From Dehalococcoidales bacterium (GTDB taxonomy: Bacteria > Chloroflexota > Dehalococcoidia > Dehalococcoidales > RBG-16-60-22): a DNA stretch of 64,000 bases. Positions within the stretch are counted from its first letter, which is position 1, and the number at the start of each line of letters is the position of its first letter. The stretch spans positions 4,034 through 68,033 of the forward strand of contig JAFGHK010000033.1 in the NCBI GenBank assembly GCA_016930185.1, written 5' to 3'. Shown here piece by piece: positions 47,362 to 61,272 of this stretch. Made by a program: the position numbers and the translations under genes. The notes beneath the pieces are model-generated. The model was given only the letters and a program-made list of their open reading frames with translations. It did not search any database and had not been told where the DNA came from.

Positions 47362-50300
47362 ATGAACGGTCGTATCAAGTTTTCACAAGGTTTAGGAATT
47401 TGTCTCTTTAATGTGGCACTAGCAATCATTTTAACATGTCTTCTCTTGCCTTATGGAGCTCCGAGTGTATTAGGGGCGCAAGACGAAAGAATCCCAAAGA
47501 AACCAACAATAATTGAAACACAAAATGCAATAGTTACTCCTGAAAACGAAACAGAACTCTCAACATCTGATAAAAAAATAAAGATAAAAATACCAAAGGG
47601 TACGGTAGATGAAACCGTAGACTTTCAACTCAACAAGAACTTAACGCCAGGCTCAACCGGTATGAAAATGGTCAACTTCTTCGAGCTTAACGTAAAAGAG
47701 CATAATAGCGAAAATAAAGTCCACCAATTTAAAAAAAATATAGAAATAACTATCCAGCACACACAGGAAGAACTAGCCGGATTGGATATTGATTCATTAT
47801 ATCTTTATTATTTGGATGAAGATAAAGGTGAGTGGATACCCATACCTTGTGAGTTTGACCGGAAGACACTAACCCTTACCGCAAAATTTAAACATTTCAG
47901 TTACTTCGGAGAGCAGGCTAATCCCTTACAAAGCGGGCCAGGCAAAGTAACGACCGCGCAGGTAGGGCTTCATTCCGGCACGGCAACCTATAGCTATCCA
48001 CTTGAGCTTCCTCCTGGTCCTGGTGGCTTCACACCATCTGTATCGTTGAATTATAACAGCGGCTCTGTCGATGGGATGAAGAACAAGCGGGACGTGGGCT
48101 CCTGGGTGGGGATCGGGTGGAGCTTGAATCTCGGTAGAATCAGCTACAACGCTGCCAGTGGCAATTATAACATTGACTTAAACGGTGTGTCCCACAAAAT
48201 CGTCCCGAATAGCGATAGTATTTTTTACACTCAACCGGAAGAATATCTTAAGATTACCAAAGATGGTAACACGTGGAGCGTATATGATAAGAGCGGTAAT
48301 TACTACCGTTTTGGTGGGACAACCGATTCGGAACAATATACGGATACTTCTGATTACTACCGCTGGGACTTAAGCTACTGGAAGGATACTAACGGTAACG
48401 AGGCTACGGTAACATACGTTCAAGATATCTGGAACAACTCGGTCCGCTCCGCGTATCCAGAGTATCTGCGTTATAACAATAACCTCGTCGAAGTACATTT
48501 CCTGTCCAGCTACTACGAAAACGGAGACTATGGTCCAGTAAGAAAAGACAACCCTATATCTTACGGTACTAACCCTGTACCTAAAAACATGGAGAACCGC
48601 CAGCTAGACTCTATTGAGATAAAGGTCAGCGGTAATCTTATCAGGAAATATAATTTTTCGTATATCACGACAGACCGTGTTTATTCTTCCGACTACGACG
48701 GTATTTACTATTCAGGAAAACACATGCTAATGTCAATAACCCAAATTGGGACGGACGGCGAGTCAAGTCTGTCGCCAACGAGTTTCGTCTACCAGTATCG
48801 GGAGGTTTTTCGATATGCAAATGAGACAGAGTACACAGGTAATCCCGGCAACCCGGCTTCAATCACCTGGCCATTCTTATCGGCTATCGACAGCGGTTAT
48901 GGAGGTAGTATCAGCTTTACCTATACCCAGATTCCGGATACCTCTGTCTTAAATACCTGGACACGTCAGGCTGTTACCCAAAAGATAATCAACGGTGGAA
49001 TGGGGACCACAGAAATATATAGTTACGCCTATACCCACAATCCACAATATAAAGGAGTAGACTGGGACCAGGAGTTCCGCGGCTGGAATGAGGTAATAGA
49101 GACCGATGCTGATGGTAACTACTTAAAACATTATTTTTATACCACTGGCACCATAAGCGGCAAGGATGCCGAGAAACTGACCGGAAAGGAATATCAAACA
49201 ATATGGTACGATAGCGCCAACACATTATTGAAAACTAAAAATTATGACTGGAACCGGATAGATACAAGCCAGAATTTTACAGGTTCAATGACATTCTATC
49301 CCGATGCCAGCCCGGAATCGTCTAGCGTGGATGGTATAGTAGGAGAGACTACAAAACAGTCGTTCGCTTCATTAGTTGCCGATGTTGGGGATGGTAGTAA
49401 TGACAGTATTGAAAGTTACTACATTTGCTCGCTCGCAGCTGATACTGTCAGCAACATCTGGTACAATATATTTCGGGGTATTTTTCTCTTTGATACATCT
49501 GGTTTGCCTGATAATGCTTCCATTACAGGTGCAACTCTTTCTATATATGGGTATTCTAAATTTGATACAGTAGGCTGGCTGCCAGATATTAACATCTATT
49601 CTTCAAATCCTGCGAGTAACACAACACTAGTAAACGGCGATTACGATTCTCTTGGCACGGTAGCCTTTGCTACAGCAATTGGATATAATGACTGGAATAC
49701 GTCTGGTTATAATGATTTTGCTTTCAATTCTGATGGACTAAATGCAATCAGTAAAACAGGTATATCAAAGTTCGGAACTCGCAATGCTAATTACGAGGTT
49801 GCAGGGTCTCCTCCAACTTGGGCTAGTGGTCAATATTACGCAATGATGGGGCGCTTCGCAGAGTCAGGTGAAGGCTACAAGCCCAAACTAGTTGTTACAT
49901 ATAATATGTCTTCTCTCTATAAAGTCTATCTATCTAATATAGAAGAAACTATCGGCACCAAGACCACCCGTACCGAATACGTTTATGATGACTACGGTAA
50001 TGTCATTACGGAAAAACGCCATGGAGATATCTCCACAACAGATGATGATTCAACTATACACCGAGTTTATTACGCCAATAACTCTACTGCTTATATAGTA
50101 AATAAACCCGCCAGAGAGCGAGTCTATGCTACCATCACCGAAGACGTCGGCGGAGCTAACCTTAAGAAAGAAACTTTCTATTACTACGATGGGAATAATG
50201 CCTTATTTACTACGCCTCCCACCAAAGGCAATCTTACCCGCCTGGAACAGAAGAAAGACGCCTCCAATTCGATAAGCAGCTACAGTACCTATGATACCTA

Positions 50301-53300
50301 CGGCAACCTACTCACCAGTCAGGATCCCAACGGCAATACAACCACCTGGGCATTCGATACCACCTATCATGTTTATCCACTCACTAAGACTATGCCTTTA
50401 ATCGGCTCTGAAAGTTACACTTACGCCCCAGGCACTACCAACCTGCTATCAATGACAGATGTTAATGGGCAGACGACCACCTATGAATATGATACATTCC
50501 AGCGCCTGACTAAAGTCATTAAACCAGGAGATTCTTCCGCCAGTCCGTCGGTGGAATACCAGTACAACAACTGGGGCACCATCAACTACCAGAACATTAA
50601 AACGATAACCAAGGTAGATGCTACCACCTTCCTCTGGCAGACCCAGTACTTTGACGGGCTGGGGCGGGTAGTTCAAGTACATACCAACGGCGAGAGCGGC
50701 AATACCATTATTGCCAGTACCACAACCTTTAACAACCGGGGCATGGTGGACAGGCAATATGTGAGTCAAGATATCGCATCTATTCTTACCAGTTATCAAT
50801 CACCTGACGCCAGTTGGAAATATTCCACCTCAACATATGATGCTCTGGGGAGAGTAGTAACGCAGACCGGTGCCGACGGTACATCAATCAGCCATGATCA
50901 CAGCGTTGCCTGGCAGGATACGGTGACCAACCAGCGCGGCTTCAAGACGAGGTTCCTCTACGATGCTTTCCAACGTCTCGTTAAGGTAGAGGAGCTAAAC
51001 GCCAGCCACCAACTGTACGCCACTACGACCTATTACTACGACATTCTCGGCAATCTCATAGAGGTTTACGATAACAACAATAACACTACAGTCATGTTGT
51101 ACGACTGGCTTTCCCGCAAGACCGCTATGTCCGACCCCGATATGGGCGTCTGGTCTTACGGGTACGATAACAATGGCAACCTCGTTACCCAGACTGATGC
51201 TAAGAGCCAGACAATCACTATGACTTACGACGCCCTGAACCGGCTCGTGAGTAAAGTCTATCCTGTCGGTTCTAATATGACTAACGTTTACTACGTCTAC
51301 GATAGCACCGCAGGCGGTAACTACGGCAAAGGCCTACGTACCTCCATGACCGACGCTTCTGGAAATACGACCTATGTGTACGATAATCGCGGGCGACTGG
51401 TACAGGAAACCCGCGTTATAGATTCGATTGCTTATATCACTTCATTCACTTATGACGGCGCCAACCGGCCCGTCACCATCACCTACCCCACCGGTGAAGT
51501 AGTCACACAGACATATAACGGGCAAGGCCTCCCCTATTCCCTCTCCGGTAGCGCGGCAGGGAATCTCGTTACCGGCACATATTACAATAATCTGGGGTCT
51601 TTAACAGAAATCGACTTCGGCAACGGACTCAAGACAACTTACGGATATTATGATATGAACGGTATCAACGATACTACCGGCGGCTATTACGGCAAGCTCT
51701 GGGAAATCAAGACCCTGCCGCAGGTCGGCGGGGATGCCTTACAGGACGTCCAGCATACATGGGATGCTGCCGGCAATCTGGTAACGAGAGAGGATAAGTT
51801 AAATTCCATTACCGAAAATTTTGAATATGATTTCCTTGATAGATTAGTCAGCGGCTACACAGGGGAAAAGGATAACTGGCTTACCGGCTGGGCAAACAGG
51901 GTAAAGATTACCATCGCCTCTTCACAATTAGAAGGAGACCCAATAAACATCCCGGTCCTTATCCACATTAGCGCTAGCTGTGGCCAGGGTGGCCAAGACC
52001 TTACCGCTATCTTCGATGAATTAGGTGCTAACTATAAAAAATTGGCTGTCACCACCGATGATGGGCAAACCCAGCTCTACGTGGTAGTGGAAAAATGGGA
52101 TGCCGTTAACGAAGATGCCTTGCTGCGAGTCAGTAAAGAGGGCTGGCAAATCTCCAGTTCCGAGGATACAATCATCTATCTCTACTTCGATAACACCCAT
52201 GAAGATAACTCGAGTTATGTAATAGGCGAGTACTTCATTAACTTTTCAGTAATTGAATCACGGTTAAGAGAAGATATCACGATATTCAGCTTTTCGGAAA
52301 TAGAATCGCGTCCAAAAGCAAATGTGCGTGCTATCCTGGATAAAAAAATCACGGGTCCCACTCTCATAACCGGTGTTATGATAGGTCTTGTTTTTGGTAT
52401 TACACGTGACGGAGGCTCGGCTTCCGGCAACTATACGGAGTCCTATACCTATAACGAAATCGGCAATATAATGTCAAGGAACGGCGTCACTTACACCTAC
52501 GGGACTAAGCCCCATGCCGTCACATCCGTCGGCTCGATGACTTACAGCTACGACGCTAACGGCAACATGATTACCCGCGGCGAACAGACCTTAACCTGGG
52601 ATGCGGAAAACCGCCTCATAGCCGTCTCTGGTAACGGCACTACAGCCTTCTTTATTTGCGACAGCGACGGCAACCGCGTGAAGAAGCTAGAAAACGGTGA
52701 GACCACCATCTACGTTAACAAATACTATGAGAAGAACCTCACCACCGGCAATGTCACAACCAGCTACTATCTAGGGGGCAGGCTGGTGGCAACTAAAGAA
52801 AACGAGGTCTTAAGGTATGTCCACCAGGACCACCTGACCGGCACCTCTTTAATGACAGATAACACCGGCGCGCAAATAGGCGAGACGATGAAATACCTGC
52901 CCTTTGGAGAAACCCTCTCCGGCGCCTTGCCCACCGATAAAAAGTTTACCGGCCAGAGGCTTGACGCTACCGGGCTTTACTGTTACGGCGCAAGATACTA
53001 TGACGCCACCATAGGGAGGTTTACAAGCGCAGATACAGTAGTACAGAGCTATATCAATCCGCAAAGTCTTAATAGGTATTCATATACTTTCAATAATCCT
53101 CTTAGGTATATAGACCCTAGTGGAAATATAGTTGAAATTGGGGGGGTAGATGTCAGGGTTACTGAAACTGTAATGTCAGAAGGGGCTGCCGGTTGTTTTA
53201 TACCACCAGATCTAGCGAGTTCAATAGTCGACGCAGCCGAATCACCACTTTATCAGGCGTATGAGACTCTTTCCGCAGTAGAACCGCAATTAACAGATTA

Positions 53301-53841
53301 TCTTGAAACGTCTGATCTGATAACTTCGATAGGCATTGACACTGATACGCGGTTTAATGGTGTTTGTAAGCAACCCGAAGCAGGGGCATCTGGTGATATA
53401 GCTGTTGGTATAAGACCCGAAATGCTTGGAGATAGCGATTTCTTGGTCACTTTGTTAGGTCATGAGTTATTTCACGCTGCTATCGCTGATGATATGATCC
53501 ATATGGGATTTACTGATGACTGGTGGCTAAGAACTCCTTCAATAGCAAATGAACTGCTTGCGTATTCGTTTCAAAATAGAATTGGTAACGAAATTGGATA
53601 TGTGTGGGATGAGAATAATCCATTACACAAAGCGGTAATTGCTTTCGGTGGTGTTACACCTGTTAATATTTATAGTAGATTTGAAAGCCTTACCCAATCT
53701 TATATGGATATGTTTGGGACATCCAATCTTTGGCCTAATTACGGACACTATATAGGAGGCGGTATGAGTTGTAACGGTCCAAAACCCGATAATAATATGA
53801 ACAGCGTATTTTTTACACTGGCTGCCTGTAAAGTATGGTAA
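47362..53841 (+). CDS. secreted SpvB-N / YD-repeat / Rhs-core polymorphic toxin with a C-terminal HExxH domain
   Basis: 2159 aa. GGGGGAG lies upstream and a signal peptide is present (..LLPYGAPSVLGAQD). The SpvB-like motif is GLHSGTATYSYPLELPPGPGGFTPSVSLNYNSGSVDG..GIGWSL. There are dozens of YD repeats (YxYDxxGNL). The Rhs core reads YVHQDHLTGTS..KYLPFGE..FTGQRLDATGLYCYGARYYDATIGRFTSAD..NRYSYTFNNPLRYIDPSG, followed by a ~237-aa unrelated tail. Confidence 0.9.
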   Translation: MNGRIKFSQGLGICLFNVALAIILTCLLLPYGAPSVLGAQDERIPKKPTIIETQNAIVTPENETELSTSDKKIKIKIPKGTVDETVDFQLNKNLTPGSTGMKMVNFFELNVKEHNSENKVHQFKKNIEITIQHTQEELAGLDIDSLYLYYLDEDKGEWIPIPCEFDRKTLTLTAKFKHFSYFGEQANPLQSGPGKVTTAQVGLHSGTATYSYPLELPPGPGGFTPSVSLNYNSGSVDGMKNKRDVGSWVGIGWSLNLGRISYNAASGNYNIDLNGVSHKIVPNSDSIFYTQPEEYLKITKDGNTWSVYDKSGNYYRFGGTTDSEQYTDTSDYYRWDLSYWKDTNGNEATVTYVQDIWNNSVRSAYPEYLRYNNNLVEVHFLSSYYENGDYGPVRKDNPISYGTNPVPKNMENRQLDSIEIKVSGNLIRKYNFSYITTDRVYSSDYDGIYYSGKHMLMSITQIGTDGESSLSPTSFVYQYREVFRYANETEYTGNPGNPASITWPFLSAIDSGYGGSISFTYTQIPDTSVLNTWTRQAVTQKIINGGMGTTEIYSYAYTHNPQYKGVDWDQEFRGWNEVIETDADGNYLKHYFYTTGTISGKDAEKLTGKEYQTIWYDSANTLLKTKNYDWNRIDTSQNFTGSMTFYPDASPESSSVDGIVGETTKQSFASLVADVGDGSNDSIESYYICSLAADTVSNIWYNIFRGIFLFDTSGLPDNASITGATLSIYGYSKFDTVGWLPDINIYSSNPASNTTLVNGDYDSLGTVAFATAIGYNDWNTSGYNDFAFNSDGLNAISKTGISKFGTRNANYEVAGSPPTWASGQYYAMMGRFAESGEGYKPKLVVTYNMSSLYKVYLSNIEETIGTKTTRTEYVYDDYGNVITEKRHGDISTTDDDSTIHRVYYANNSTAYIVNKPARERVYATITEDVGGANLKKETFYYYDGNNALFTTPPTKGNLTRLEQKKDASNSISSYSTYDTYGNLLTSQDPNGNTTTWAFDTTYHVYPLTKTMPLIGSESYTYAPGTTNLLSMTDVNGQTTTYEYDTFQRLTKVIKPGDSSASPSVEYQYNNWGTINYQNIKTITKVDATTFLWQTQYFDGLGRVVQVHTNGESGNTIIASTTTFNNRGMVDRQYVSQDIASILTSYQSPDASWKYSTSTYDALGRVVTQTGADGTSISHDHSVAWQDTVTNQRGFKTRFLYDAFQRLVKVEELNASHQLYATTTYYYDILGNLIEVYDNNNNTTVMLYDWLSRKTAMSDPDMGVWSYGYDNNGNLVTQTDAKSQTITMTYDALNRLVSKVYPVGSNMTNVYYVYDSTAGGNYGKGLRTSMTDASGNTTYVYDNRGRLVQETRVIDSIAYITSFTYDGANRPVTITYPTGEVVTQTYNGQGLPYSLSGSAAGNLVTGTYYNNLGSLTEIDFGNGLKTTYGYYDMNGINDTTGGYYGKLWEIKTLPQVGGDALQDVQHTWDAAGNLVTREDKLNSITENFEYDFLDRLVSGYTGEKDNWLTGWANRVKITIASSQLEGDPINIPVLIHISASCGQGGQDLTAIFDELGANYKKLAVTTDDGQTQLYVVVEKWDAVNEDALLRVSKEGWQISSSEDTIIYLYFDNTHEDNSSYVIGEYFINFSVIESRLREDITIFSFSEIESRPKANVRAILDKKITGPTLITGVMIGLVFGITRDGGSASGNYTESYTYNEIGNIMSRNGVTYTYGTKPHAVTSVGSMTYSYDANGNMITRGEQTLTWDAENRLIAVSGNGTTAFFICDSDGNRVKKLENGETTIYVNKYYEKNLTTGNVTTSYYLGGRLVATKENEVLRYVHQDHLTGTSLMTDNTGAQIGETMKYLPFGETLSGALPTDKKFTGQRLDATGLYCYGARYYDATIGRFTSADTVVQSYINPQSLNRYSYTFNNPLRYIDPSGNIVEIGGVDVRVTETVMSEGAAGCFIPPDLASSIVDAAESPLYQAYETLSAVEPQLTDYLETSDLITSIGIDTDTRFNGVCKQPEAGASGDIAVGIRPEMLGDSDFLVTLLGHELFHAAIADDMIHMGFTDDWWLRTPSIANELLAYSFQNRIGNEIGYVWDENNPLHKAVIAFGGVTPVNIYSRFESLTQSYMDMFGTSNLWPNYGHYIGGGMSCNGPKPDNNMNSVFFTLAACKVW
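53125..53838 (+). other. variable C-terminal toxin domain of the Rhs protein (putative zinc metallopeptidase)
   Basis: It begins right after the DPSG core boundary (GAC CCT AGT GGA at 53113-53124). It contains LLGHELFHAA (HExxH) with a downstream ANELLAY that could supply a third ligand. Confidence 0.55.
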
Positions 53842-53880
53842 TATATAAAATAATGTTCCGGGGGTTGAGGGCTATAAAAG

Positions 53881-54465
53881 ATGACAAGTATCAAAAGAGC
53901 CTCGTTTTTACACTCAATTTCAATATTTCTTATTATGGCTTTCTTCCTCGGTATTATCATGACCGGGTGCAGTGGATATAAAGAAGTCACCTTAACCAGA
54001 AAAGGAATTCAGTTTTCTTTCGAATACCCTTCATCATACGAAGAGTTCTGTTATAGCTTCCAAAGTGAAGATTTTTACGTAGGACTCGTGCGGTATTCAG
54101 TTGATAGCCAGGAAAGGTTAGTAGATAGAAAAATTGATATATATATTTTTAAGACAGATATAGGGCGCCCTGATGCGACCTCATCCTTAAATTCATTTCT
54201 TGAAAACAGAGTCTTCGACTATGAAGAATTCCAGCTGCTTGAAAGGTCTTCAGTGAAAGTCTCCGGTATTGATGGGGAATTGATAATTTATTCTGGATAT
54301 TACGATATTGGATATTTTATTTCAGAGCATTTAAAGGTTTGGGCAGTATACCTTGATTATAAAGACATTATATGGATTTTAATTATTTCCTCCGCCATCG
54401 ATACTTCAGATGGAGCTGAAGCTGAATTTCAGCACTTTATTGATACTTTTAGATTTCTAAATTAA
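53881..54465 (+). CDS. hypothetical lipoprotein; positional candidate for the Rhs immunity protein
   Basis: 194 aa, starting 40 nt after the toxin stop on the same strand. The lipobox is GIIMTGCSG. It is AT-rich with no recognisable domain. Confidence 0.45.
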   Translation: MTSIKRASFLHSISIFLIMAFFLGIIMTGCSGYKEVTLTRKGIQFSFEYPSSYEEFCYSFQSEDFYVGLVRYSVDSQERLVDRKIDIYIFKTDIGRPDATSSLNSFLENRVFDYEEFQLLERSSVKVSGIDGELIIYSGYYDIGYFISEHLKVWAVYLDYKDIIWILIISSAIDTSDGAEAEFQHFIDTFRFLN

Positions 54466-54625
54466 CTTATTTCAGCACTTATTAACCAAAAGTCCCCCTC
54501 TCTTCCCTCAGGGCCTTTCTTTGTTTCTGATGGATACGTGGGAGAGTAGAATTCCCCGTCCAGAAAAAGCTGTCTTGGACATCCTACAAGCTTAGTCAGC
54601 TTTCTAAAAAGGCGATTATCGGTCG

Positions 54626-55333
54626 CTAATTTTCTGATTTACCTGAACTATCTTCAAACCTATACTCTGGTGCCATTCCCATTTTCGCTTGAGCTATAGC
54701 ACTCTGGCTAAACTTTTTCAGTAACTTTAAATTTTCCTTGTTGGTTTCCGCCCTTTTAGCTATCCATTGAATTATCCGTTCCTCTGGGATACCGATTTCC
54801 TGGGCAACTTCAATGGTCCGTGATGTTACTATAGTCGAGCGTTTGTCAGTCAAGTCAAGCTTAACCTCTATACCGCTGGCGATAGCATCCAACTCATTTA
54901 GTTCCTTTTCTTTATAGCTAATACCAGTTCGTTTATTGATATTGGTCTTTGGGAATGGTTCTTTTTTCTTCTCTAACGCTGCGCTTATTCTTGAATTAAG
55001 CATATCAAGACTGAAAGGTTTGACTATATAATCCAAAGCCCCTAGCTTCATAGATTCAACAGCAGTATTGACATCATCAATAGCGGTTATCATTATTATA
55101 ATTATAGACGAATCATATTTAGACTTTATCTCTTTTAGGACATCAATTCCCGATATCTCCGGCAATCTTATATCCAACAATGCAATATCAAATATGTCCT
55201 TTTCCATCTTGCGCAAGGCACTGTTCCCGTCAGAAGCGACTTCACAAAAGTACCCCAGATCATTCAAGTCCTCGGAGATAAGATCACATATAACTGGTTC
55301 ATCATCAACGATAAGAACACGGGGTTTATTCAT
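54626..55333 (-). CDS. response regulator (receiver domain) with an uncharacterised C-terminal domain
   Basis: 235 aa. The receiver reads RVLIVDDEPVICDLI..DIALLDIRLPEISG..DYIVKP. The C-terminal ~100 aa have no LuxR, OmpR or other HTH that I can recognise. Confidence 0.8.
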   Translation of the reverse strand: MNKPRVLIVDDEPVICDLISEDLNDLGYFCEVASDGNSALRKMEKDIFDIALLDIRLPEISGIDVLKEIKSKYDSSIIIIMITAIDDVNTAVESMKLGALDYIVKPFSLDMLNSRISAALEKKKEPFPKTNINKRTGISYKEKELNELDAIASGIEVKLDLTDKRSTIVTSRTIEVAQEIGIPEERIIQWIAKRAETNKENLKLLKKFSQSAIAQAKMGMAPEYRFEDSSGKSEN

Positions 55334-55500
55334 AATTTATCACTCTTTATTTCGTATTATTCCAGAGTCTATCAGAGTACTTCTCCTATGTCAATAACTA
55401 AATAATGAGTCAATTTGAGTGACAAGTAGTGTCATCAAATGCATGGTAGTCCTCTAATAGATTACGCCTTTTTACATTATATATACTTGACTTTTGCCAT

Positions 55501-55929
55501 TTGTCTATGTATATTGTTTCCATAATGATACGCACCGGCAATAATTTAGGTAAACTAATCAAACAAAAGAGGGTTTCAGTTCCATTAACTTTATGTGAGT
55601 TGGGTAGCAGTTCGGGCGTTTCTCCATCCCATCTCGGTAGAATTGAGCGGGGTGAGCGTCTCCCTTCAGCACGAGTCCTGCGAAAGATTGCTAAGCCTTT
55701 GGGTTTTAAAGAAGAAGAATTATTTATGATAGCCGGATTTTTATCTAGTCCATCCAGCGATCAGAAAAATCCTTCTGGTAGCTATCATTATTCTTCTAAA
55801 CTTGACCCATTTGTTGCCAATGTATTATCTCAAGAACCTGCAGAAGTTCAACGTGCAGTAATAGGTATTCTCAGTATGCTTAAAGTCATTTCGAAAACCA
55901 ATAAAAATAAAGCCAAGCCAAATAATTGA
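55501..55929 (+). CDS. XRE-family helix-turn-helix transcriptional regulator
   Basis: The HTH reads LGKLIKQKRVSVPLTLCELGSSSGVSPSHLGRIERGERLPSARVLRKIAKPLG. The start codon is uncertain (TTG at 55501 or an internal ATG). Confidence 0.75.
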   Translation: MSMYIVSIMIRTGNNLGKLIKQKRVSVPLTLCELGSSSGVSPSHLGRIERGERLPSARVLRKIAKPLGFKEEELFMIAGFLSSPSSDQKNPSGSYHYSSKLDPFVANVLSQEPAEVQRAVIGILSMLKVISKTNKNKAKPNN

Positions 55930-55952
55930 ATTTATTAGGAGGTAGGCTACAC

Positions 55953-56171
55953 ATGAAATCCAAAGCACTAAAGCAGTTGGTCAGGGAAATCTTCAGTGAT
56001 GAAAAAACCAAACAGCAATTCTTATCAAATCCAGATAGTGTTATCTCGCAATACCCTTTAACTAAACAGGAGAAACAAGCAATATTAAATACACACGCTA
56101 AACTCGGATTAGCAACCTCCAATTCAGGGCAACTGGAAGCAGTCATTGGCCCTATGGGTACTTGGTCATAA
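55953..56171 (+). CDS. small ComX-like pheromone/RiPP precursor candidate (72 aa, single Trp at position -2)
   Basis: AGGAGG lies 8-10 nt upstream of the ATG at 55953. The product is MKSKALKQLVREIFSDEKTKQQFLSNPDSVISQYPLTKQEKQAILNTHAKLGLATSNSGQLEAVIGPMGTWS. It has a helical, charged leader-like N-terminus and a Gly/Ser/Thr-rich C-terminus ending in the only Trp. It lies 22 nt upstream of the ComQ-like gene. Confidence 0.55.
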   Translation: MKSKALKQLVREIFSDEKTKQQFLSNPDSVISQYPLTKQEKQAILNTHAKLGLATSNSGQLEAVIGPMGTWS

Positions 56172-56193
56172 TGTCGCGCCATCATCTTACTAA

Positions 56194-57153
56194 ATGTGGC
56201 AAGATAGGCAATCAAGGCTTCTCTCGGAAGAAATAATTACGATTTTATCGTCCTCAATTGACGAGGCTGATCTATACCATTTGGTTAAGGAATCCTTAAC
56301 TCAAACTGGGCGAGGATTTGCTATCAAATCCAAAACTCAAAATTATAAACCGTGGCCACTTTTAGTTCTAGTAGCATGCGAGGCTATTTCCGGAAAATAT
56401 GAACATGCACTACCGGCTGCTGCTGCTTTGCAACTACATATGGCCGCTGGTGATATCTTCGATGATATCGAAGATGCAGATTCGAAAGATTCAATACCAG
56501 CAAGATACGGTATTACCATAGCTACCAATATTGCTACTACTATTTTAACTTTAGCAGAGAAAGCGATCACGCAACTCAAGAAAAAAGGTATTGATGACCA
56601 CGTAATAGTCAGTATTATAGATATAGTAAATTCTCTTTGTATTACATCATGCGTCGGTCAACATTTAGATTTGTCTTTAGCCTCAAATATTACTCTTTCA
56701 GAAGACATGTATTTCAGAATTATAGGCATGAAATCGGCCTCGCAAATAGAATGTGCTTGTCATGTCGGGGCATTGTTGACTACTACAGATCAAGACTTAG
56801 TAGATACTTTCGCCAAATTCGGTCATAATCTCGGAATGGCATCTCAAATTGCGAATGACATCCAGGGTATTACTACTGGAATTGACCTTTTTAAAAAAAG
56901 AATGACTTTACCTGTAATATATGCTTTAAATCAGGCAAATAAAGAGGATCGCTATCAGCTAAAATTCATATTCAGCAGACAGTCTGGACCCATAACCGAT
57001 TTAGAAAAATTAAGAAATATGATAACCAATAATGGCGCTATCTATTATTCGATAATAAAGATGGAACTCTTCAAACAACAGGCTCTTGATATTCTCACCA
57101 AAATAAAGGAGAAAGGTATTAATATAGAACGAATGAAGTTATTTCTTGAATAA
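56194..57153 (+). CDS. divergent polyprenyl-synthetase-fold protein, ComQ-like (candidate peptide Trp prenyltransferase)
   Basis: 319 aa. The first Asp-rich motif is AAGDIFDDIEDADS, with no following RRG. GQHLDL is present. The second Asp-rich motif is degenerate (QIANDIQG instead of DDxxD). KKRMTLPVIYAL is also present. Confidence 0.6.
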   Translation: MWQDRQSRLLSEEIITILSSSIDEADLYHLVKESLTQTGRGFAIKSKTQNYKPWPLLVLVACEAISGKYEHALPAAAALQLHMAAGDIFDDIEDADSKDSIPARYGITIATNIATTILTLAEKAITQLKKKGIDDHVIVSIIDIVNSLCITSCVGQHLDLSLASNITLSEDMYFRIIGMKSASQIECACHVGALLTTTDQDLVDTFAKFGHNLGMASQIANDIQGITTGIDLFKKRMTLPVIYALNQANKEDRYQLKFIFSRQSGPITDLEKLRNMITNNGAIYYSIIKMELFKQQALDILTKIKEKGINIERMKLFLE

Positions 57154-57168
57154 ACAACCGAGGTATAT

Positions 57169-59580
57169 ATGAGTCGAGTCCATTATTTCTTCAATAAACT
57201 GTCCGCAGACCGTGGTTTGTTTAGAGGAGTACTAATTTCTTTATTCGCGTTCTGTATTTTAGTTATATCTCTGACATTCTTTGCTTTAAGTATTCCTGAA
57301 CCTTATATGGGTGCTATGCTCTCAAAAAGTACTCAAGGCTGGGTTGTCGAAAGCGTAGATACAAGTGGTCTAGCAAGCGAAGCTGGGATACAGGTAGGAG
57401 ATAAACCGACTATAATCAACGGTCAACCAGCCCAAGCATTCTTAGAAAAATATGAGAATGCCGAAGTGGTTTTTGGAAGATTAATTAATGAGTTAGCCGT
57501 GATTGATAACGATGGTCAAGTGAAATCGGTAACGCTTGAGAACGCTTCACCTCCTGCTAGGACTTTAGTTGAAATATTAACATGGTTTATTGTCTGTTTC
57601 GTGTGTTGGGCAACCGGATTCTATGTATTTTTTAAAAGACCAGGTAATCTTACAGCATTATTGTTGTGCTTTTGTGGGTTAGCTTTCGGATTGGCTCTTA
57701 GTGCGAACATGGCAGTAGAAAGGAGCATTCCTTCTGCACTTTGGTTTGAGATTACTGCATCTGTCATTGGACCTTGGTTGCTGCTACATTTTTTCCTAGT
57801 TATACCTGAAGAAAGAGCTTGGCCTCGCCACAATCCCCTCGTATATCTTATTTATATCCCTGCACTAATAACACTAATACTTTTTCCTATCATCGGTTAT
57901 GCAAATGGCCAACCTTTGCCAGGTTTTCGTATTTTCAGGCTTTTTGAATACTGCGCTGGATTTGTTTTGGTAGCTGGTGTAGCAGTAATTAATTACATAT
58001 ACTCTATCTCACCCAGAACACGACAACAAATGAAGATAGTTTTAATAAGCTGTCTAATAGCTCTGATTCCATTTCTAGTTTTTAATATTCTACCGTGGAC
58101 AATATCGGGACAAACTATCATAACACCGGGATTTAGTATGCTATTTCTTGCCTTCATACCATTAGGTATGGGATATGCTGTGATAACTCAAAAATTAATG
58201 GATATTGATATCGTCATTAGAAGAGGTATGATTTATGGTCTAATTACACTAATCATGGCAGCTATTGTATCCGCAGCTATCTTCTTGGTCGTAAATTTTA
58301 ATACATCAATTGGAACCCCAATACAAATTCTTGCGGCTCTGATAGTGGGAGGGCTAGCTGCGGTTCTCTTTGGACCCATAAAAAAGAGGATAGAAATTCT
58401 GATAGACAAGCTATTTTACAAAGACAGATATGATTATCGTCAGGTAATCCAAAGTCTAAGTAACGCTCTCAACTCCGCAAATAATCTGACCGGAATATCA
58501 CGTCTAATAGTCGGGACTACGGTAAATACTCTGAATTTATCAGGAGGCTGCCTATTCATCAAGAAACACCCGGACTCTTATAAGATCGCTGCTTCCCAAG
58601 GAATATTTATGGATGTTGTAAGGCAAGAATATCTGCGAAAATTGATATCTGATACATCTAGTACAAATAGCCTAGTTGAATTTCCTAATTTGGCAACAAC
58701 CATTGACTCGAATACTGCATTTATAGTTCGCCTAGCAATGGGTGGAAAAGAAATCGGTATCCTTTTACTTTCTCATAAAATATCTAAGCAACAATTTTCA
58801 TCCGATGACCTGTACCTAATACAAGGAATATCTTCTATTTCTTCTATAGCGTTATATAGTAATATGCTTATTCACGATGTTAGCATTAGAGATACTTTCG
58901 TCTCCATCGCATCTCATGAACTACGCACGCCGCTGACTGCTATAACTGGTTATGCCGAACTCCTATTACGACGAAATCCTCCTGAAGGTACTAGAAAGAA
59001 ATGGCTTGAGAATATCCTTGATAACGGGCAAAACATAAGTAGAATGGCCAATGATTTACTCAATGTCACTCGTATTCAATCAGGTAAGCTCGCTCTAAAG
59101 TTACAGCGTTTAAATGTATCCAAGATTTTAGATGAACGACTAAATTTAGCGCGAGAAAATTCTAATATACATAAGTTTTCTATTCAAATAGAACCCGATC
59201 TCCCTGATGTGGTGGTTGATCGGGATAAATTTGGTCAGATCATAACGAATCTTCTAAACAATGCTATAAAATATAGCCCTAAAGGTGGTCGGATTACTTT
59301 GTCAGCAAATTATAACTCATTAAATTTTTGCCTAGTCATAAGTGTTGCCGACGAAGGTATTGGTATTAGCCCGGATGATACAAAGTCTCTTTTCACAACT
59401 TTCCACCGGATACAAAGGTCGGAGACACAAAGTATTAGAGGAAGCGGTCTTGGACTTTTTATAGCCAAAGAATGGACTGAGGCTATGGCTGGTAAAATTT
59501 GGGTAGAAAGTGAGTTGAACAAAGGGTCAACATTCTTTGTTTCAATTCCGGTAGAAATGACCAATCCTTATATCTTATAA
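57169..59580 (+). CDS. polytopic membrane sensor histidine kinase with an extracytoplasmic PDZ-like domain (ComP-like position)
   Basis: 803 aa. An N-terminal TM helix is followed by a PDZ-like segment (GWVVESVDTSGLASEAGIQVGDKPTIINGQP) and about 9 further TM helices. A GAF-like linker precedes the H-box SHELRTPLTAITGY and a HATPase_c domain (NNAIKYSP..DEGIGI..GSGLGL). Confidence 0.85.
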   Translation: MSRVHYFFNKLSADRGLFRGVLISLFAFCILVISLTFFALSIPEPYMGAMLSKSTQGWVVESVDTSGLASEAGIQVGDKPTIINGQPAQAFLEKYENAEVVFGRLINELAVIDNDGQVKSVTLENASPPARTLVEILTWFIVCFVCWATGFYVFFKRPGNLTALLLCFCGLAFGLALSANMAVERSIPSALWFEITASVIGPWLLLHFFLVIPEERAWPRHNPLVYLIYIPALITLILFPIIGYANGQPLPGFRIFRLFEYCAGFVLVAGVAVINYIYSISPRTRQQMKIVLISCLIALIPFLVFNILPWTISGQTIITPGFSMLFLAFIPLGMGYAVITQKLMDIDIVIRRGMIYGLITLIMAAIVSAAIFLVVNFNTSIGTPIQILAALIVGGLAAVLFGPIKKRIEILIDKLFYKDRYDYRQVIQSLSNALNSANNLTGISRLIVGTTVNTLNLSGGCLFIKKHPDSYKIAASQGIFMDVVRQEYLRKLISDTSSTNSLVEFPNLATTIDSNTAFIVRLAMGGKEIGILLLSHKISKQQFSSDDLYLIQGISSISSIALYSNMLIHDVSIRDTFVSIASHELRTPLTAITGYAELLLRRNPPEGTRKKWLENILDNGQNISRMANDLLNVTRIQSGKLALKLQRLNVSKILDERLNLARENSNIHKFSIQIEPDLPDVVVDRDKFGQIITNLLNNAIKYSPKGGRITLSANYNSLNFCLVISVADEGIGISPDDTKSLFTTFHRIQRSETQSIRGSGLGLFIAKEWTEAMAGKIWVESELNKGSTFFVSIPVEMTNPYIL

Positions 59581-59901
59581 AGTTGCATATAAAAATTGTT
59601 TATTACCCAACACTGCCACGCTTAGCCATAACAAGATCAGTTTTTGATATGGCGAATATCGGTATTAACAGTCAATATAAAGTCAACCACCGCATAAACA
59701 ACATACTTATCCTTCTATCACCGGATTAGAAGGTTAGAAAATCAATCATTTAACAGGCCTCTAAAAGGGTGGGTGCTTGTCCACATTTAGTGACAGGTGT
59801 ATAATTAGCCATGCCAAAAAGACTTCTTTTATTGGAAAGGTTAAACTTTAACAGGTAAATTTAATCTATTATGAAAAGTACTTTTACATTGTGAGGTTTA
59901 A

Positions 59902-60384
59902 GTGAAACCATTAATATTGTTAATAGGAGGCATCAATTCTGGTAAGTCTACTATCATTTCCAGTTTAACAGGTTGTCCATCTCATAATTTCAGAGAATTA
60001 GTCAGAGATAGATCTACTGGGCGACAAATCTACGTCATTTCAAGTTCTCCACAAGAAGATAGTCTTTCCCAAGGAGAGCTTGACCAAATTTTAGAAACAG
60101 TCCATCGGCGACGAAGAGTTATCGGTCTGGTAATAAGCATCCAGCCAACATACCCCCGGACCCGTCTTTCTCTTGAGAATATTATCCAAACCGTACAAGT
60201 AAATAGTCACTTCACGATCTTCGCATTCATTCTTGATCCGCCGTATTCAAGTGATGGTTCGATTGACTTAACTGATACCATTAATAGGTTGGCTTCTTTT
60301 GGAGTTGTTTCCCGTTATCTTGATGGGCGTCGTTTCGCTTACCTAAATGCTTCAGACATAAGACAAATAGTAGGTGTACCATAA
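59902..60384 (+). CDS. hypothetical P-loop NTPase
   Basis: GTG start, 160 aa, Walker A LIGGINSGKST. No further assignment is possible. Confidence 0.45.
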   Translation: MKPLILLIGGINSGKSTIISSLTGCPSHNFRELVRDRSTGRQIYVISSSPQEDSLSQGELDQILETVHRRRRVIGLVISIQPTYPRTRLSLENIIQTVQVNSHFTIFAFILDPPYSSDGSIDLTDTINRLASFGVVSRYLDGRRFAYLNASDIRQIVGVP

Positions 60385-60433
60385 GTTTTCTCTTGTTTTT
60401 TATAGAAAGGCTATATATACTTTGTCTATCGAT

Positions 60434-60502
60434 AGATTTAATGAAAAAGTTGATTTTATATGGAGTGTAGCTAATTTATTGCGCGGTCCCTACAAACCAG
60501 CC
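60434..60502 (+). pseudogene. short N-terminal remnant of a type I restriction-modification methylase (hsdM-like)
   Basis: The translation RFNEKVDFIWSVANLLRGPYKPA matches the HsdM N-terminal signature (..FIWs.AdlLRG.yk..). The similarity stops abruptly about 50 nt before the convergent TetR gene. Confidence 0.4.
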
Positions 60503-60555
60503 CTTTTAAGTTATGAACCTGATATTTTTGAAATGAGGCATCAGAGGCATCAAAC

Positions 60556-61074
60556 TTATAAACTTAAACTTTTTATCAGAATATCCGTCCGTTTTTCTAA
60601 TATTTCGATTGAGGGTTTATCATCCAGTATTCCTTTGTAAGAGAATACGATAACCTCGGCCAAATCAAAACCGATTAATGGGACGAGTGATTTTATAAAG
60701 TCCCCCCTTAATAATTGTTCACTTGTCTGGATACTTTTAACAGGTTTAAGCCAGATATTTGGCAAGGGGGATTTATAAATGATCCGGTGAGGGTCTATTA
60801 TCCATATGTCGATTATCTTGCGTAATTTTTGCTTAGCCGGCAGATCAGAATCAAGTACTTCTTGAGATTGGCGCAGATAATTTTTATGTTTCTCGTCCAT
60901 CATGGCAAAGAAAAATTCCTGCTTGCTTTTGAAATAGGTATATATCAGGGCTCTTGATATCCCCGCTTTTTGGGCCACATCATCGAAGGTCGTCTTATCA
61001 TAACCGTACTCTGCAAAACAGGCAGATGCTGCATCGATAATTTGGCTTCGTGTGATGCTTCTTTTATCTTTCAT
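60556..61074 (-). CDS. TetR/AcrR family transcriptional regulator
   Basis: 172 aa with the N-terminal HTH TRSQIIDAASACFAEYGYDKTTFDDVAQKAGISRALIYTYFKSKQEFF. Confidence 0.85.
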   Translation of the reverse strand: MKDKRSITRSQIIDAASACFAEYGYDKTTFDDVAQKAGISRALIYTYFKSKQEFFFAMMDEKHKNYLRQSQEVLDSDLPAKQKLRKIIDIWIIDPHRIIYKSPLPNIWLKPVKSIQTSEQLLRGDFIKSLVPLIGFDLAEVIVFSYKGILDDKPSIEILEKRTDILIKSLSL

Positions 61075-61272
61075 CAGCAGGCCCCACTTTCGCGCGTTAG
61101 GTTTCTATATAATAATTAGACATATTGACAATATTTGTCTAATATGTAAACATAAATCAACATTCCCTTAATACTTAACAGTAGTTAAGACAGATTGTCA
61201 ATCCATTCATCAACTTATCCTAACAAAAAAGAAAAAACGGAAATTATACAAAGATAAAATAGGAGGGACGCG

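What the first reader, a model, noticed from the sequence alone, without database searches (positions are those of the whole stretch)
55953..56171. Candidate pheromone precursor with a leader-like N-terminus and its only tryptophan two residues from the C-terminus
The 72-aa product has a strong SD (AGGAGG) and a charged amphipathic N-terminal ~45 aa (KQLVREIFSDEKTKQQFLSNPDSVISQYPLTKQEKQAIL), which is reminiscent of RiPP and ComX leaders. The tail is small-residue-rich (LGLATSNSGQLEAVIGPMGTWS). The protein has a single Trp, encoded by TGG at 56163-56165. In ComX pheromones the modified Trp also sits 2-4 residues from the C-terminus. There is no signal peptide, TM helix or double-glycine motif, which fits export and processing like ComX rather than a class II bacteriocin.
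Basis: seen in the sequence. Interest (0 to 1): 0.7.

Follow-up and report, generated by a model that had tools for sequence, protein, structure and literature searches.

The report
Prenylated-tryptophan peptide signal precursor, Dehalococcoidia
This small gene very probably encodes the precursor of a lipid-tagged (tryptophan-prenylated) signalling peptide, next to its modifying enzyme and a membrane sensor: a ComX-like cell-to-cell signalling cassette in an uncultivated Dehalococcoidales bacterium, a group with no such system described.

Summary
ORF 55953-56171 (+) encodes 72 aa behind AGGAGG, with one Trp (TGG 56163-56165) at the penultimate position.

It is a real, conserved gene:
- There are about 170 homologues, nearly all from Dehalococcoidia or Chloroflexi metagenomes.
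- The 63-aa helical leader is conserved and the 8-14 aa tail is hypervariable.
- 146 of 147 full-length members keep a C-terminal Trp.

In every locus with enough sequence, the gene is followed by two others:
- A trans-isoprenyl-diphosphate-synthase-like enzyme. It has an invariant first Asp-rich motif (FARM, DDxxD). Its second Asp-rich motif (SARM) is degenerate, Q-x-x-N-D, the ComQ/StheQ "pseudo-SARM".
- A receptor built like ComP: TM1, a PDZ loop, about nine more TM helices, and a GAF-like region.

By sequence the peptide is not a Pfam ComX member. Its leader resembles the NHLP (nitrile hydratase leader peptide)/LigA type, as in PalX of Paenibacillus. The penultimate Trp matches StheX of Sphaerobacter, which was shown in vitro in 2026 to be farnesylated by StheQ.

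The window's kinase is HisKA-type, not HisKA_3. Its regulator is not NarL-type, and the gene order is X-Q-P.

Verdict: a new member of a known kind. Prenylation is strongly inferred. The pheromone role is plausible but untested.

The parts
54626..55333 (-). Response regulator: a receiver domain plus a ~110-aa C-terminal domain with no family match. It is the probable cognate regulator and is divergently oriented here.
   Evidence: Response_reg hit at 8.6e-28. It is 40% identical over its full length to the 245-aa regulator conserved just upstream of the cassette in L007-L010, L016 and L005. The C-terminal domain has no PDB sequence hit.
55501..55929 (+). XRE-type helix-turn-helix (HTH) regulator, the first gene of the XRE-X-Q-HK operon. 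The exact start codon is uncertain.
   Evidence: HTH_3 hit at 3.5e-10. Its orthologue in the closest syntenic relative L015 is 71% identical and sits directly before X. In more distant relatives an HTH_17-receiver protein occupies this position.
55937..55942 (+). Shine-Dalgarno sequence AGGAGG, 10 nt before the ATG of X
   Evidence: GGAGG-like sites occupy the same place in most related loci.
55953..56141 (+). X leader, residues 1-63: a conserved helical domain of NHLP/LigA-like type that ends in S-x-Q-L-E-A
   Evidence: Mean column entropy is 0.66 bits. The AlphaFold2 model has helices at 4-56 with pLDDT about 90. 43 of 47 members hit NF038399, 39 of 47 hit TIGR03793, and 47 of 47 hit Pfam LigA, all below the curated cut-offs.
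56142..56171 (+). X core or tail VIGPMGTWS plus the stop codon. The predicted acceptor Trp71 is encoded by TGG at 56163-56165.
   Evidence: The tail is hypervariable apart from P67 and the invariant W71. Model pLDDT is below 50 for residues 65-72. In multi-core relatives the LEA-type spacer is repeated before each core.
56194..57153 (+). Q: a trans-isoprenyl-diphosphate-synthase-like enzyme, the predicted peptide Trp prenyltransferase. FARM DDIED is at 56461-56475 and pseudo-SARM QIANDIQG at 56845-56868.
   Evidence: PF00348 hit at 2.9e-25. D90, D91, D94, Q218, N221 and D222 are invariant in 125 homologues. Aligned to canonical synthases, FQIxDDxxD becomes SQIANDIQG with a deletion after it, and the Arg before the conserved Pro is Trp. 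There are 551 homologues at E<1e-5.
57169..59580 (+). Sensor histidine kinase with a ComP-like sensor: TM1 (about residues 21-39), PDZ loop (about 44-130, nt 57298-57558), about nine more TM helices (136-402), a GAF-like region, HisKA (574-639) and HATPase_c (684-796)
   Evidence: Pfam. Hydropathy. A profile of the N-terminal 140 aa hits DegP/DegS/RseP PDZ domains, with a best E-value of 9.5e-8. The same sensor module is fused to HisKA_3 or to HD-GYP outputs in relatives.

Best explanation
The 72-aa product (X) is the precursor of a ribosomally made, Trp-prenylated peptide. It forms a three-part cassette with the next two genes: XRE regulator - X - Q - sensor kinase, with a divergent response regulator upstream.

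Proposed mechanism:
1. X is translated from a strong Shine-Dalgarno sequence. Shown: the ORF, the SD and conservation.
2. Its helical NHLP/LigA-like leader (residues 1-~57) docks on Q, and the disordered tail enters Q's active site. Inferred, by analogy with the PalX-PalQ and StheX-StheQ complexes.
3. Q has kept the donor-binding FARM but lost the IPP-condensing SARM. It transfers a prenyl group (probably C10-C15; length unknown) to C3 of the Trp71 indole, with ring closure to a pyrroloindoline as in ComX, PalX and StheX. Inferred from motifs and from homologous chemistry.
4. A protease cuts near the conserved Q-L-E-A, releasing a lipopeptide of about 9 residues, VIGPMGT(W*)S. Inferred from the conservation boundary and from multi-core relatives that repeat the LEA spacer. 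The protease and exporter are unknown.
5. The peptide is sensed outside the cell by the PDZ loop and 10-TM bundle of the adjacent kinase. The kinase signals to the 235-aa response regulator. Inferred. The regulated genes are unknown.
For: **Family anatomy**
- Conserved leader, variable tail and invariant Trp.

**Synteny**
- X is immediately followed by Q in all 11 distinct loci with downstream sequence. Q is followed by the receptor in all 10 loci that extend far enough.

**Q motifs**
- The FARM is invariant. Q-x-x-N-D replaces DDxxD in 125 of 125 homologues.
- The contrast with canonical synthases is visible in the HMMER alignments.
- This matches the ComQ/StheQ definition, where N215D abolishes 98% of StheQ activity (bioRxiv 10.64898/2026.08.29.745113).

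**Precedents**
- StheX (69 aa, Chloroflexi) is farnesylated in vitro on the Trp second from its C-terminus. Its residues 1-59 are ordered and 60-69 disordered.
- The model of X shows the same pattern.
- PalPXQ combines a kinase, an NHLP-type precursor and a trans-IDS-like prenyltransferase, and the NHLP domain enhances prenylation (PMC10853753). The X leader gives consistent sub-threshold NHLP-clan hits.

**Receptor**
- The layout of TM1, PDZ and about nine TM helices matches the ComP model (PMC9620489).
- The sensor module is homologous to receptors with HD-GYP output (E=2e-43) and with HisKA_3 output plus a NarL/GerE regulator (E=6e-22).

**Isoprenoid link**
- Relatives carry a type-1 IPP isomerase in the same gene string, above the curated cut-offs.

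**Co-diversification**
- Against the closest syntenic relative L015, the kinase core is 91% identical. The PDZ loop is 64%, Q 60%, the X leader 79% and the X tail 44%.
- Over 26 X-Q pairs, Q divergence tracks tail divergence after controlling for the leader (partial Mantel r=0.42, p=2e-4).
Against: - There is no direct evidence of translation, modification, cleavage, export or sensing.
- X has no detectable similarity to Pfam ComX.
- NHLP and LigA hits are all below the curated cut-offs. For the window peptide, TIGR03793 scored 17 bits against a cut-off of 50.9.
- Foldseek matches of the model are not significant (E>=0.9).
- The third acidic residue of StheQ's pseudo-SARM (D219, whose mutation removes 83% of activity) is Gly in this family.
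- No protease or exporter is conserved in the cassette.
- The window lacks the receiver-only regulator and the IPP isomerase found in relatives.
- The kinase is HisKA-type, not ComP's HisKA_3, and the regulator is not NarL-type.
Only three pairs were verified on DNA, and the sequences are phylogenetically related.
- I could not obtain the StheX/StheQ, PalX/PalQ or ComQ sequences for direct comparison.
Confidence: 0.68

Rival explanations
1. X and Q make a prenylated RiPP natural product (for example a membrane-active or antimicrobial lipopeptide) rather than a quorum-sensing pheromone. The adjacent kinase only regulates production or immunity.
For: The biological role of PalX and StheX is also unknown. 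Prenylated Trp peptides can be membrane-active (PMC13290415). Multi-core precursors are typical of natural-product RiPPs such as cyanobactins.
Against: The receptor always sits next to Q. It has ComP's PDZ-plus-10-TM sensor, and the same sensor is re-used with three different output domains. The sensor, Q and the tail diverge faster than the kinase core. No transporter or immunity gene is conserved in the cassette.
Confidence: 0.2
2. Q is a genuine polyprenyl diphosphate synthase, as annotated. X is a small non-catalytic partner subunit or an unrelated small helical protein, not a substrate.
For: NCBI and JGI annotate Q as polyprenyl or geranylgeranyl diphosphate synthase. Heteromeric trans-prenyl synthases with small subunits exist (for example PDB 3aqb and 9kp1). 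StheQ and StheX form a stable complex. X gives weak hits to LigA, a small accessory subunit.
Against: The SARM needed for IPP condensation is replaced by N-D-x-x-G in all 125 homologues, and the Arg before the conserved Pro is Trp. A structural partner would not need a hypervariable disordered tail with one invariant Trp. No LigB-type gene is nearby.
Confidence: 0.04
3. The ORF is a chance open frame or an untranslated remnant.
For: It is small and has no Pfam family. JGI gives several homologues spurious names such as 'ApbE' and 'Mrr'.
Against: About 170 full-length homologues share start, length and motifs. The Shine-Dalgarno sequence is conserved and synteny is strict. The predicted fold is confident, with pLDDT about 90 over residues 1-50.
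Confidence: 0.01

Closest known systems
StheQ/StheX of Sphaerobacter thermophilus (Chloroflexi; bioRxiv 10.64898/2026.08.29.745113, Aug 2026)
   Same: - Same phylum.
- The precursor is about 70 aa, with an ordered N-terminal ~59 residues and a disordered tail.
- The acceptor Trp is second from the C-terminus.
- The enzyme is of the trans-IPPS fold, with a FARM plus a pseudo-SARM N-D and a Gln three residues upstream.
- The FARM-to-N spacing is 131 residues here and 130 in StheQ.
   Different: - Here X lies upstream of Q; stheX lies downstream of stheQ.
- The window's FARM is DDxxD (DExxD in StheQ), and the D219 equivalent is Gly.
- StheX has WW; the window has a single W.
- No receptor is described for Sthe, whereas a ComP-like kinase is always adjacent here.
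- I could not compare sequences directly because they were not obtainable.
PalP/PalX/PalQ of Paenibacillus alvei (PMC10853753)
   Same: The cluster combines a histidine kinase, an NHLP-type precursor and a trans-IDS-like Trp prenyltransferase. The order is X then Q. The leader domain and the C-terminal Trp are conserved.
   Different: - PalQ requires Trp as the very last residue and keeps both SARM aspartates (D200, D204).
- Here Trp is penultimate or followed by x-[AS]-P-x-P, and the motif is N-D-x-x-G.
- The NHLP similarity of X is sub-threshold.
- The phylum differs (Firmicutes).
ComQXPA of Bacillus subtilis and other Firmicutes (census in PMC4008528)
   Same: - A small precursor with Trp near its C-terminus and a hypervariable mature region.
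- An isoprenyl transferase of about 300 aa with a FARM and an N-D pseudo-SARM.
- A receptor with TM1, a PDZ-like loop and nine more TM helices.
- Faster divergence of Q, the X tail and the sensor than of the kinase core.
   Different: - X has no ComX (PF05952) similarity.
- The order is X-Q-P, not Q-X-P-A.
- The kinase is HisKA rather than HisKA_3.
- The regulator is not NarL/GerE-type and lies upstream on the other strand.
- More distant relatives (L013/L014) do have HisKA_3 plus a GerE regulator.
NHLP-leader RiPP precursors (TIGR03793; NHLP-clan NF038399/Os1348)
   Same: A helical leader of about 60 aa. Most family members give weak but consistent hits, and Foldseek lists Os1348 and SonA among its weak matches.
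   Different: Scores fall below the curated cut-offs. There is no Gly-Gly cleavage site and no C39-peptidase ABC exporter. The partner enzyme is a prenyltransferase rather than a cyclodehydratase, lanthionine synthetase or radical-SAM enzyme.

Membership tests
ComQXPA (Bacillus type, criteria of PMC4008528) | ComQ: a single-domain PF00348 protein of about 290-310 aa | tested here: met
   PF00348 hit at 2.9e-25; the protein is 319 aa.
ComQXPA (Bacillus type) | ComQ active site: FARM DDxxD plus pseudo-SARM NDxxx | tested here: met
   DDIED at residues 90-94 and Q218-x-x-N221-D222, invariant in 125 homologues.
ComQXPA (Bacillus type) | ComX: a match to Pfam PF05952 | tested here: not met
   No hit at E<=0.05 in 47 members. 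hhalign probability was 0.2% against a B. subtilis 168 ComX sequence recalled from memory.
ComQXPA (Bacillus type) | ComX: a 52-73 aa precursor with Trp within the last 5-10 residues and a variable mature part | tested here: met
   The precursor is 72 aa with W71. Tail entropy is 1.6-3.3 bits against 0.66 bits for the leader.
ComQXPA (Bacillus type) | Gene order Q-X-P-A on one strand | tested here: not met
   The order is XRE-X-Q-P, and the regulator is upstream on the minus strand.
ComQXPA (Bacillus type) | ComP: a multi-TM sensor with a PDZ-like first loop | tested here: met
   About 10 hydrophobic segments. The PDZ profile hits DegP/DegS at about 1e-7. The ComP model is described in PMC9620489.
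ComQXPA (Bacillus type) | ComP: a HisKA_3 (PF07730) phospho-acceptor domain | tested here: not met
   The window kinase has HisKA PF00512 at 1.6e-17. HisKA_3 is present only in distant relatives L013/L014.
ComQXPA (Bacillus type) | ComA: a receiver domain plus a GerE/LuxR HTH | tested here: not met
   The window regulator has a receiver domain plus a domain with no family match. A GerE regulator is present in L013/L014.
ComQXPA (Bacillus type) | Trp C3 prenylation with ring closure, and an extracellular active peptide | not testable with these tools
   This needs mass spectrometry or a bioassay.
StheQ/StheX (Chloroflexi ComQ-like pair) | A precursor of about 69 aa with an ordered N-terminal domain, a disordered C-terminal ~10 residues, and the acceptor Trp second from the C-terminus | tested here: met
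   The AlphaFold2 model has pLDDT about 90 for residues 1-50 and below 50 for 65-72. W71 of 72. The paper is cited.
StheQ/StheX (Chloroflexi ComQ-like pair) | Catalytic N215, D216 and D219 with Q212 | tested here: inconclusive
   The Q, N and D equivalents are invariant, but the D219 equivalent is Gly in 124 of 125 homologues.
StheQ/StheX (Chloroflexi ComQ-like pair) | Sequence homology to StheX and StheQ themselves | not testable with these tools
   The sequences are not in the text. They were not retrieved by the profile search A2, and no closer PDB relative was found.
PalPXQ (Paenibacillus) | An NHLP-type leader domain | tested here: inconclusive
   TIGR03793 was hit by 39 of 47 members (best E-value 8.5e-6). 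NF038399 was hit by 43 of 47 (best 8.4e-8). All are below the curated cut-offs.
PalPXQ (Paenibacillus) | The acceptor Trp is the C-terminal residue | tested here: not met
   Trp is terminal in only 2 of 147 members. It is penultimate in the window.
PalPXQ (Paenibacillus) | SARM aspartates retained (D200, D204) | tested here: not met
   The motif is N221...G225.
Canonical chain-elongating trans-IPPS (the public annotation of Q) | Second Asp-rich motif DDxxD and basic IPP-binding residues | tested here: not met
   FQIxDDxxD is replaced by SQIANDIQG with a deletion after it, and the Arg before the conserved Pro is Trp.
NHLP RiPP precursors with GG-cleaving export | A Gly-Gly site plus a C39-peptidase ABC transporter nearby | tested here: not met
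   X has no GG. No transporter appears in the window cassette or in related loci.

The most novel reading that the evidence does not exclude
Dehalococcoidia and related Chloroflexi carry a widespread, undescribed family of prenyl-tryptophan peptide signalling cassettes. The evidence does not exclude the following features:
- Pherotype-like co-diversification of the peptide core, the prenyltransferase and the PDZ/10-TM sensor.
- Precursors that carry two or three cores.
- A sensor module wired to different outputs: HisKA kinases, ComP/ComA-type HisKA_3-NarL pairs, or HD-GYP c-di-GMP phosphodiesterases.

If true, this would be the first cell-to-cell communication system for this largely uncultivated class, and a deep evolutionary link between ComX, PalX and StheX signalling.
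Probability: 0.45. Interest if true: 0.7.

Novelty: new member of a known kind. Interest (0 to 1): 0.55.

Why it matters
**Distribution.** Trp-prenylated peptide pheromones were long thought to be confined to Bacillus and other Firmicutes; the 2014 census found none elsewhere. One Chloroflexi enzyme-substrate pair was characterised in vitro only in 2026, and no receptor or biology was attached to it.

**What this locus adds.** It and its roughly 170 peptide and more than 550 enzyme relatives show a complete precursor-enzyme-receptor cassette that is common in Dehalococcoidia metagenomes.

**Testable consequences.**
- Peptides such as VIGPMGT(W-prenyl)S can be synthesised and tried on enrichment cultures of a group that is hard to grow.
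- The family offers a natural series of tails co-varying with enzymes for studying substrate specificity. That is useful for peptide lipidation biocatalysis.
- It provides a PDZ-containing sensor module for studying how lipopeptides are recognised.

Tried and rejected
- **ComX homology.** No PF05952 hit. hhalign of the family profile against a ComX168 sequence recalled from memory gave 0.2% probability. The literature confirmed only the mature peptide ADPITRQWGD.
- **Retrieving StheX/StheQ.**
  - No supplement text is held.
  - A profile of the distant, high-GC family members (A2) returned 18 proteins, none ending in WWx and none with organism names.
  - The cluster look-up gave no taxonomy.
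- **LigA small-subunit idea.** The hits are sub-threshold and there is no LigB partner nearby, so I rejected it.
- **Foldseek of the X model against PDB.** Only non-significant matches (DesB/LigA N-terminus, SonA, Os1348; E>=0.9). These agree with the sequence hits but are not evidence on their own.
- **Phage-borne cassette.** L010 has capsid and portal genes on its flanks, but a scan of IMG/VR found no relative.
- **Promoter and terminator scan of 54.4-60 kb.** The counts were no better than shuffles.
- **C-terminal domain of the response regulator.** No PDB sequence relative.
- **IPP isomerase or receiver-only regulator in the window.** None found.

Full report
**1. Observation**

The ORF is exactly as described.
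- ATG is at 55953 and TAA at 56169-56171; the product is 72 aa.
- AGGAGG is at 55937-55942, 10 nt upstream of the ATG.
- The single Trp codon, TGG, is at 56163-56165.
- Trp is residue 71 of 72, so it is penultimate.
- There is no Gly-Gly motif and no hydrophobic stretch.

The gene lies in a tight same-strand string:
- an XRE-type HTH gene (55501-55929), then a 23-nt gap;
- X (55953-56171), then a 22-nt gap;
- a polyprenyl-synthase-like gene, Q (56194-57153), then a 15-nt gap;
- an 803-aa histidine kinase (57169-59580).

A response regulator (54626-55333) lies upstream on the minus strand. An identical protein in NCBI places the sequence in a Dehalococcoidales MAG.

**2. The gene is real and belongs to a large family**

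- A word-indexed search found 79 full-length homologues at 53-76% identity.
- A profile search of 1.84 billion representatives found 106 hits at E<=1e-3 and 58 at E<=1e-10.
- A scan of GTDB species genomes found six loci. All are Dehalococcoidia or Chloroflexi MAGs, except one short contig binned as Syntrophaceae.
- A GGAGG-type Shine-Dalgarno sequence is conserved in most loci.
- The window holds no paralogue.

**3. Anatomy of the peptide family**

In the 47-sequence alignment A1, residues 1-63 are highly conserved. Their mean column entropy is 0.66 bits, and the region ends in S58-x-Q60-L61-E62-A63. Positions 64-70 and 72 vary strongly (1.6-3.3 bits). P67 is nearly invariant and W71 is invariant.

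Across 147 full-length members, including distant ones:
- 146 have a C-terminal Trp;
- 95 have exactly one residue after the Trp;
- 38 end in W-x-[AS]-P-x-P;
- only 2 have any Trp in the first 55 residues;
- there are 139 distinct 14-residue tails.

Five relatives carry two or three tandem cores, each preceded by an LEA-like spacer. An example is ...LEAATGPMGTWFAPVPFSKRLETAVGPMGTWFAPVPFS.... This suggests that the Q-L-E-A boundary is a recognition or cleavage element. The window's mature peptide would then be about VIGPMGTWS.

An AlphaFold2 model built on A1 gives confident helices over residues 4-56 (pLDDT about 90) and a disordered tail (residues 65-72, pLDDT below 50).

**4. The leader type**

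- No member hits Pfam ComX.
- 47 of 47 members hit Pfam LigA (best E-value 7.4e-6).
- 43 of 47 hit the NHLP-clan model NF038399 (best 8.4e-8).
- 39 of 47 hit the NHLP leader model TIGR03793 (best 8.5e-6).
- 28 of 47 hit TIGR04509.
- All of these are below the curated cut-offs.
- Foldseek returns the same kinds of protein (DesB/LigA N-terminus, the RiPP precursor SonA, Os1348) but without significance.

I read the leader as a divergent NHLP/LigA-like helical leader domain.

**5. The neighbouring enzyme**

Q matches PF00348 at 2.9e-25. NCBI annotates it as a polyprenyl synthetase; NCBI's version starts 29 codons late, although homologues conserve the N-terminus MWQxRQ.

In 125 aligned homologues, including two distant ones at 34-37% identity:
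- the first Asp-rich motif D90-D91-x-x-D94 is invariant;
- the second motif is Q218-x-x-N221-D222-x-x-G225, with Q, N and D invariant.

HMMER alignments to canonical octaprenyl and geranylgeranyl synthases show FQI(K/W)DD(I/V)xD opposite SQIANDIQG, with a deletion after it. They also show Trp where the conserved Arg precedes Pro.

FARM plus an N-D "pseudo-SARM" is the signature used to define ComQ and StheQ. N215D removes 98% of StheQ activity. A Gln just before the SARM is shared by all trans-IDS-like Trp prenyltransferases (PMC13290415). One difference is that the equivalent of StheQ D219 is Gly here.

**6. The receptor**

Hydropathy gives TM1 at about residues 21-39, a loop of about 90 residues, and then about nine more hydrophobic segments up to residue 402.

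A profile of the first 140 residues from eight loci hits the PDZ domains of DegP, DegS and RseP, with a best E-value of 9.5e-8. One relative passes Pfam's PDZ_6 threshold.

This is the architecture predicted for Bacillus ComP: a PDZ-like first extracellular loop and ten TM helices (PMC9620489).

The same sensor module is fused to other outputs:
- an HD-GYP domain in L011/L012 (E=2e-43);
- HisKA_3-HATPase followed by a receiver-GerE regulator in L013/L014 (E=6e-22), which is a ComP/ComA-type pair.

A sensor module that keeps its position next to X-Q while its output domains are exchanged argues that it senses the X-Q product.

**7. Synteny**

- X is followed by Q in all 11 distinct loci with downstream sequence.
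- Q is followed by the receptor in all 10 loci that extend far enough.
- Most Dehalococcoidia relatives also have, upstream, a 235-249-aa regulator and an HTH_17-receiver protein. The window's minus-strand regulator is the orthologue of that 235-249-aa regulator (40% identity over its full length).
- Downstream, those relatives have a receiver-only regulator and a bona fide type-1 IPP isomerase (156 bits against a cut-off of 127).
- The window lacks the last two and has an XRE regulator instead of the HTH_17-receiver protein. Its closest syntenic relative L015 shares this arrangement (71% identical XRE, 75% nucleotide identity over 3.9 kb).

**8. Divergence pattern**

Comparing the window with L015 gives these identities:

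| Region | Identity |
|---|---|
| Kinase catalytic core | 91% |
| GAF-like region | 78% |
| TM bundle | 72% |
| PDZ loop | 64% |
| Q | 60% |
| X leader | 79% |
| X tail | 44% |

The Q closest to the window's (85% identity) belongs to a locus whose X has an identical tail, although its leader is only 68% identical.

Over 26 X-Q pairs, Q divergence correlates with tail divergence after controlling for the leader (partial Mantel r=0.42, p=2e-4). There are caveats.

The pattern resembles the comQ / comX / 5'-comP polymorphism of Bacillus pherotypes. This comparison rests on established knowledge of that system.

**9. Comparison with known systems**

Three characterised relatives exist.
- **ComQXPA.** The 2014 census found none outside Firmicutes.
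- **PalPXQ.** It combines a kinase, an NHLP-type precursor with a terminal Trp, and a trans-IDS-like prenyltransferase. The NHLP domain enhances prenylation.
[quoted passage not shown] That precursor's first 59 residues are ordered.

The window combines features of all three:
- a PalX-like leader type and X-then-Q order;
- StheX-like Trp position, length and phylum;
- the ComQ/StheQ pseudo-SARM;
- a ComP-like sensor.

It fails several formal ComQXPA criteria: the ComX Pfam match, gene order, HisKA_3 and the GerE regulator. It also fails PalQ's terminal-Trp and retained-SARM features. I therefore describe it as working like these systems and as a new member of the trans-IDS-like Trp-prenylated peptide kind, not as a comQXPA locus.

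**10. Mechanism and confidence**

- That X is the substrate precursor of Q, with Trp71 as acceptor: about 0.8.
- That the product is a secreted signal sensed by the adjacent kinase: about 0.6.

Shown: the ORF, its conservation, the motifs, the synteny and the domain architecture. Inferred: docking, the prenylation chemistry, the cleavage site, export and sensing. Unknown: the prenyl chain length, the protease and exporter, and the regulon.

**11. Verdict**

The novelty is moderate. The kind is known and has recently been extended to Chloroflexi. However, a complete cassette in Dehalococcoidia appears undescribed in the literature I could search. The same holds for its large metagenomic family, the multi-core precursors and the modular receptors.

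Noticed in passing
window 53400-61200: The whole cassette sits in a low-GC block of about 8 kb (36-39% GC) between flanks of 47-52% GC. The block also holds a 194-aa putative lipoprotein, a 160-aa P-loop ORF and a TetR-like ORF. This suggests horizontal acquisition. In several relatives the cassette GC also differs from its flanks (L010: 41.6% against 52% and 47%; L013: 70% against 62% and 59%).
   Followed up: partly
window 47362-53841 (+) and 53881-54465 (+): A 2159-aa YD/Rhs-repeat protein has a C-terminal region containing an HExxH motif (HELFH at residue 2034). A 194-aa ORF with a lipobox-like MTGCSG and no family hit follows it directly. Together they look like a polymorphic toxin with its immunity protein.
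   Followed up: no
proteins P0206, P0208, P0221, P0241, P0243: These relatives of X carry two or three tandem cores, each with its own Trp and preceded by an LEA-like spacer. One example has 3x (L/M)(E/D)GPWSAP. I know of no multi-core precursors described for ComX, PalX or StheX.
   Followed up: partly
L011/L012 7249-9606; L013/L014 7195-10235: The same PDZ-plus-multi-TM-plus-GAF sensor found next to X-Q is fused to an HD-GYP domain in one lineage. In another lineage it is fused to HisKA_3-HATPase and followed by a receiver-GerE regulator, a ComP/ComA-like pair.
   Followed up: partly
L007 11596-12569, L001 3987-4922, L010 11647-12569: In relatives the kinase is followed by a receiver-only regulator and a type-1 isopentenyl-diphosphate isomerase that scores above the NCBIfam cut-offs. 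Both are absent from the 64-kb window.
   Followed up: yes
L010 5097-5777 and 14872-16231: In one relative the cassette is flanked by phage-like genes (an SU10-type major capsid protein and an SPP1-type portal). A scan of IMG/VR viral contigs with the X profile found no relative.
   Followed up: partly
L016 12078-13019: A signal-peptide-peptidase-family (PF06550) intramembrane protease gene follows the kinase in one relative. It is a possible processing enzyme but is not conserved in other loci.
   Followed up: no
window 54626-55333 (-), residues ~125-235: The C-terminal ~110 aa of the response regulator has no Pfam, NCBIfam or PDB sequence match. It is nevertheless conserved (40% identity over the full length) in the regulators upstream of related cassettes. 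It may be an undescribed output domain.
   Followed up: partly
window 56194-57153: The public annotation of Q starts 29 codons downstream (290 aa) and calls it a polyprenyl synthetase. Homologues conserve the longer N-terminus MWQxRQ. JGI gives several X homologues spurious names such as 'ApbE lipoprotein', 'Mrr' and 'LimK'.
   Followed up: yes
window 59902-60384 (+): A 160-aa ORF with a P-loop (GGINSGKS) lies directly after the kinase. It has no family match beyond a weak AAA_23 hit, and it occupies the position where relatives have the receiver-only regulator.
   Followed up: no
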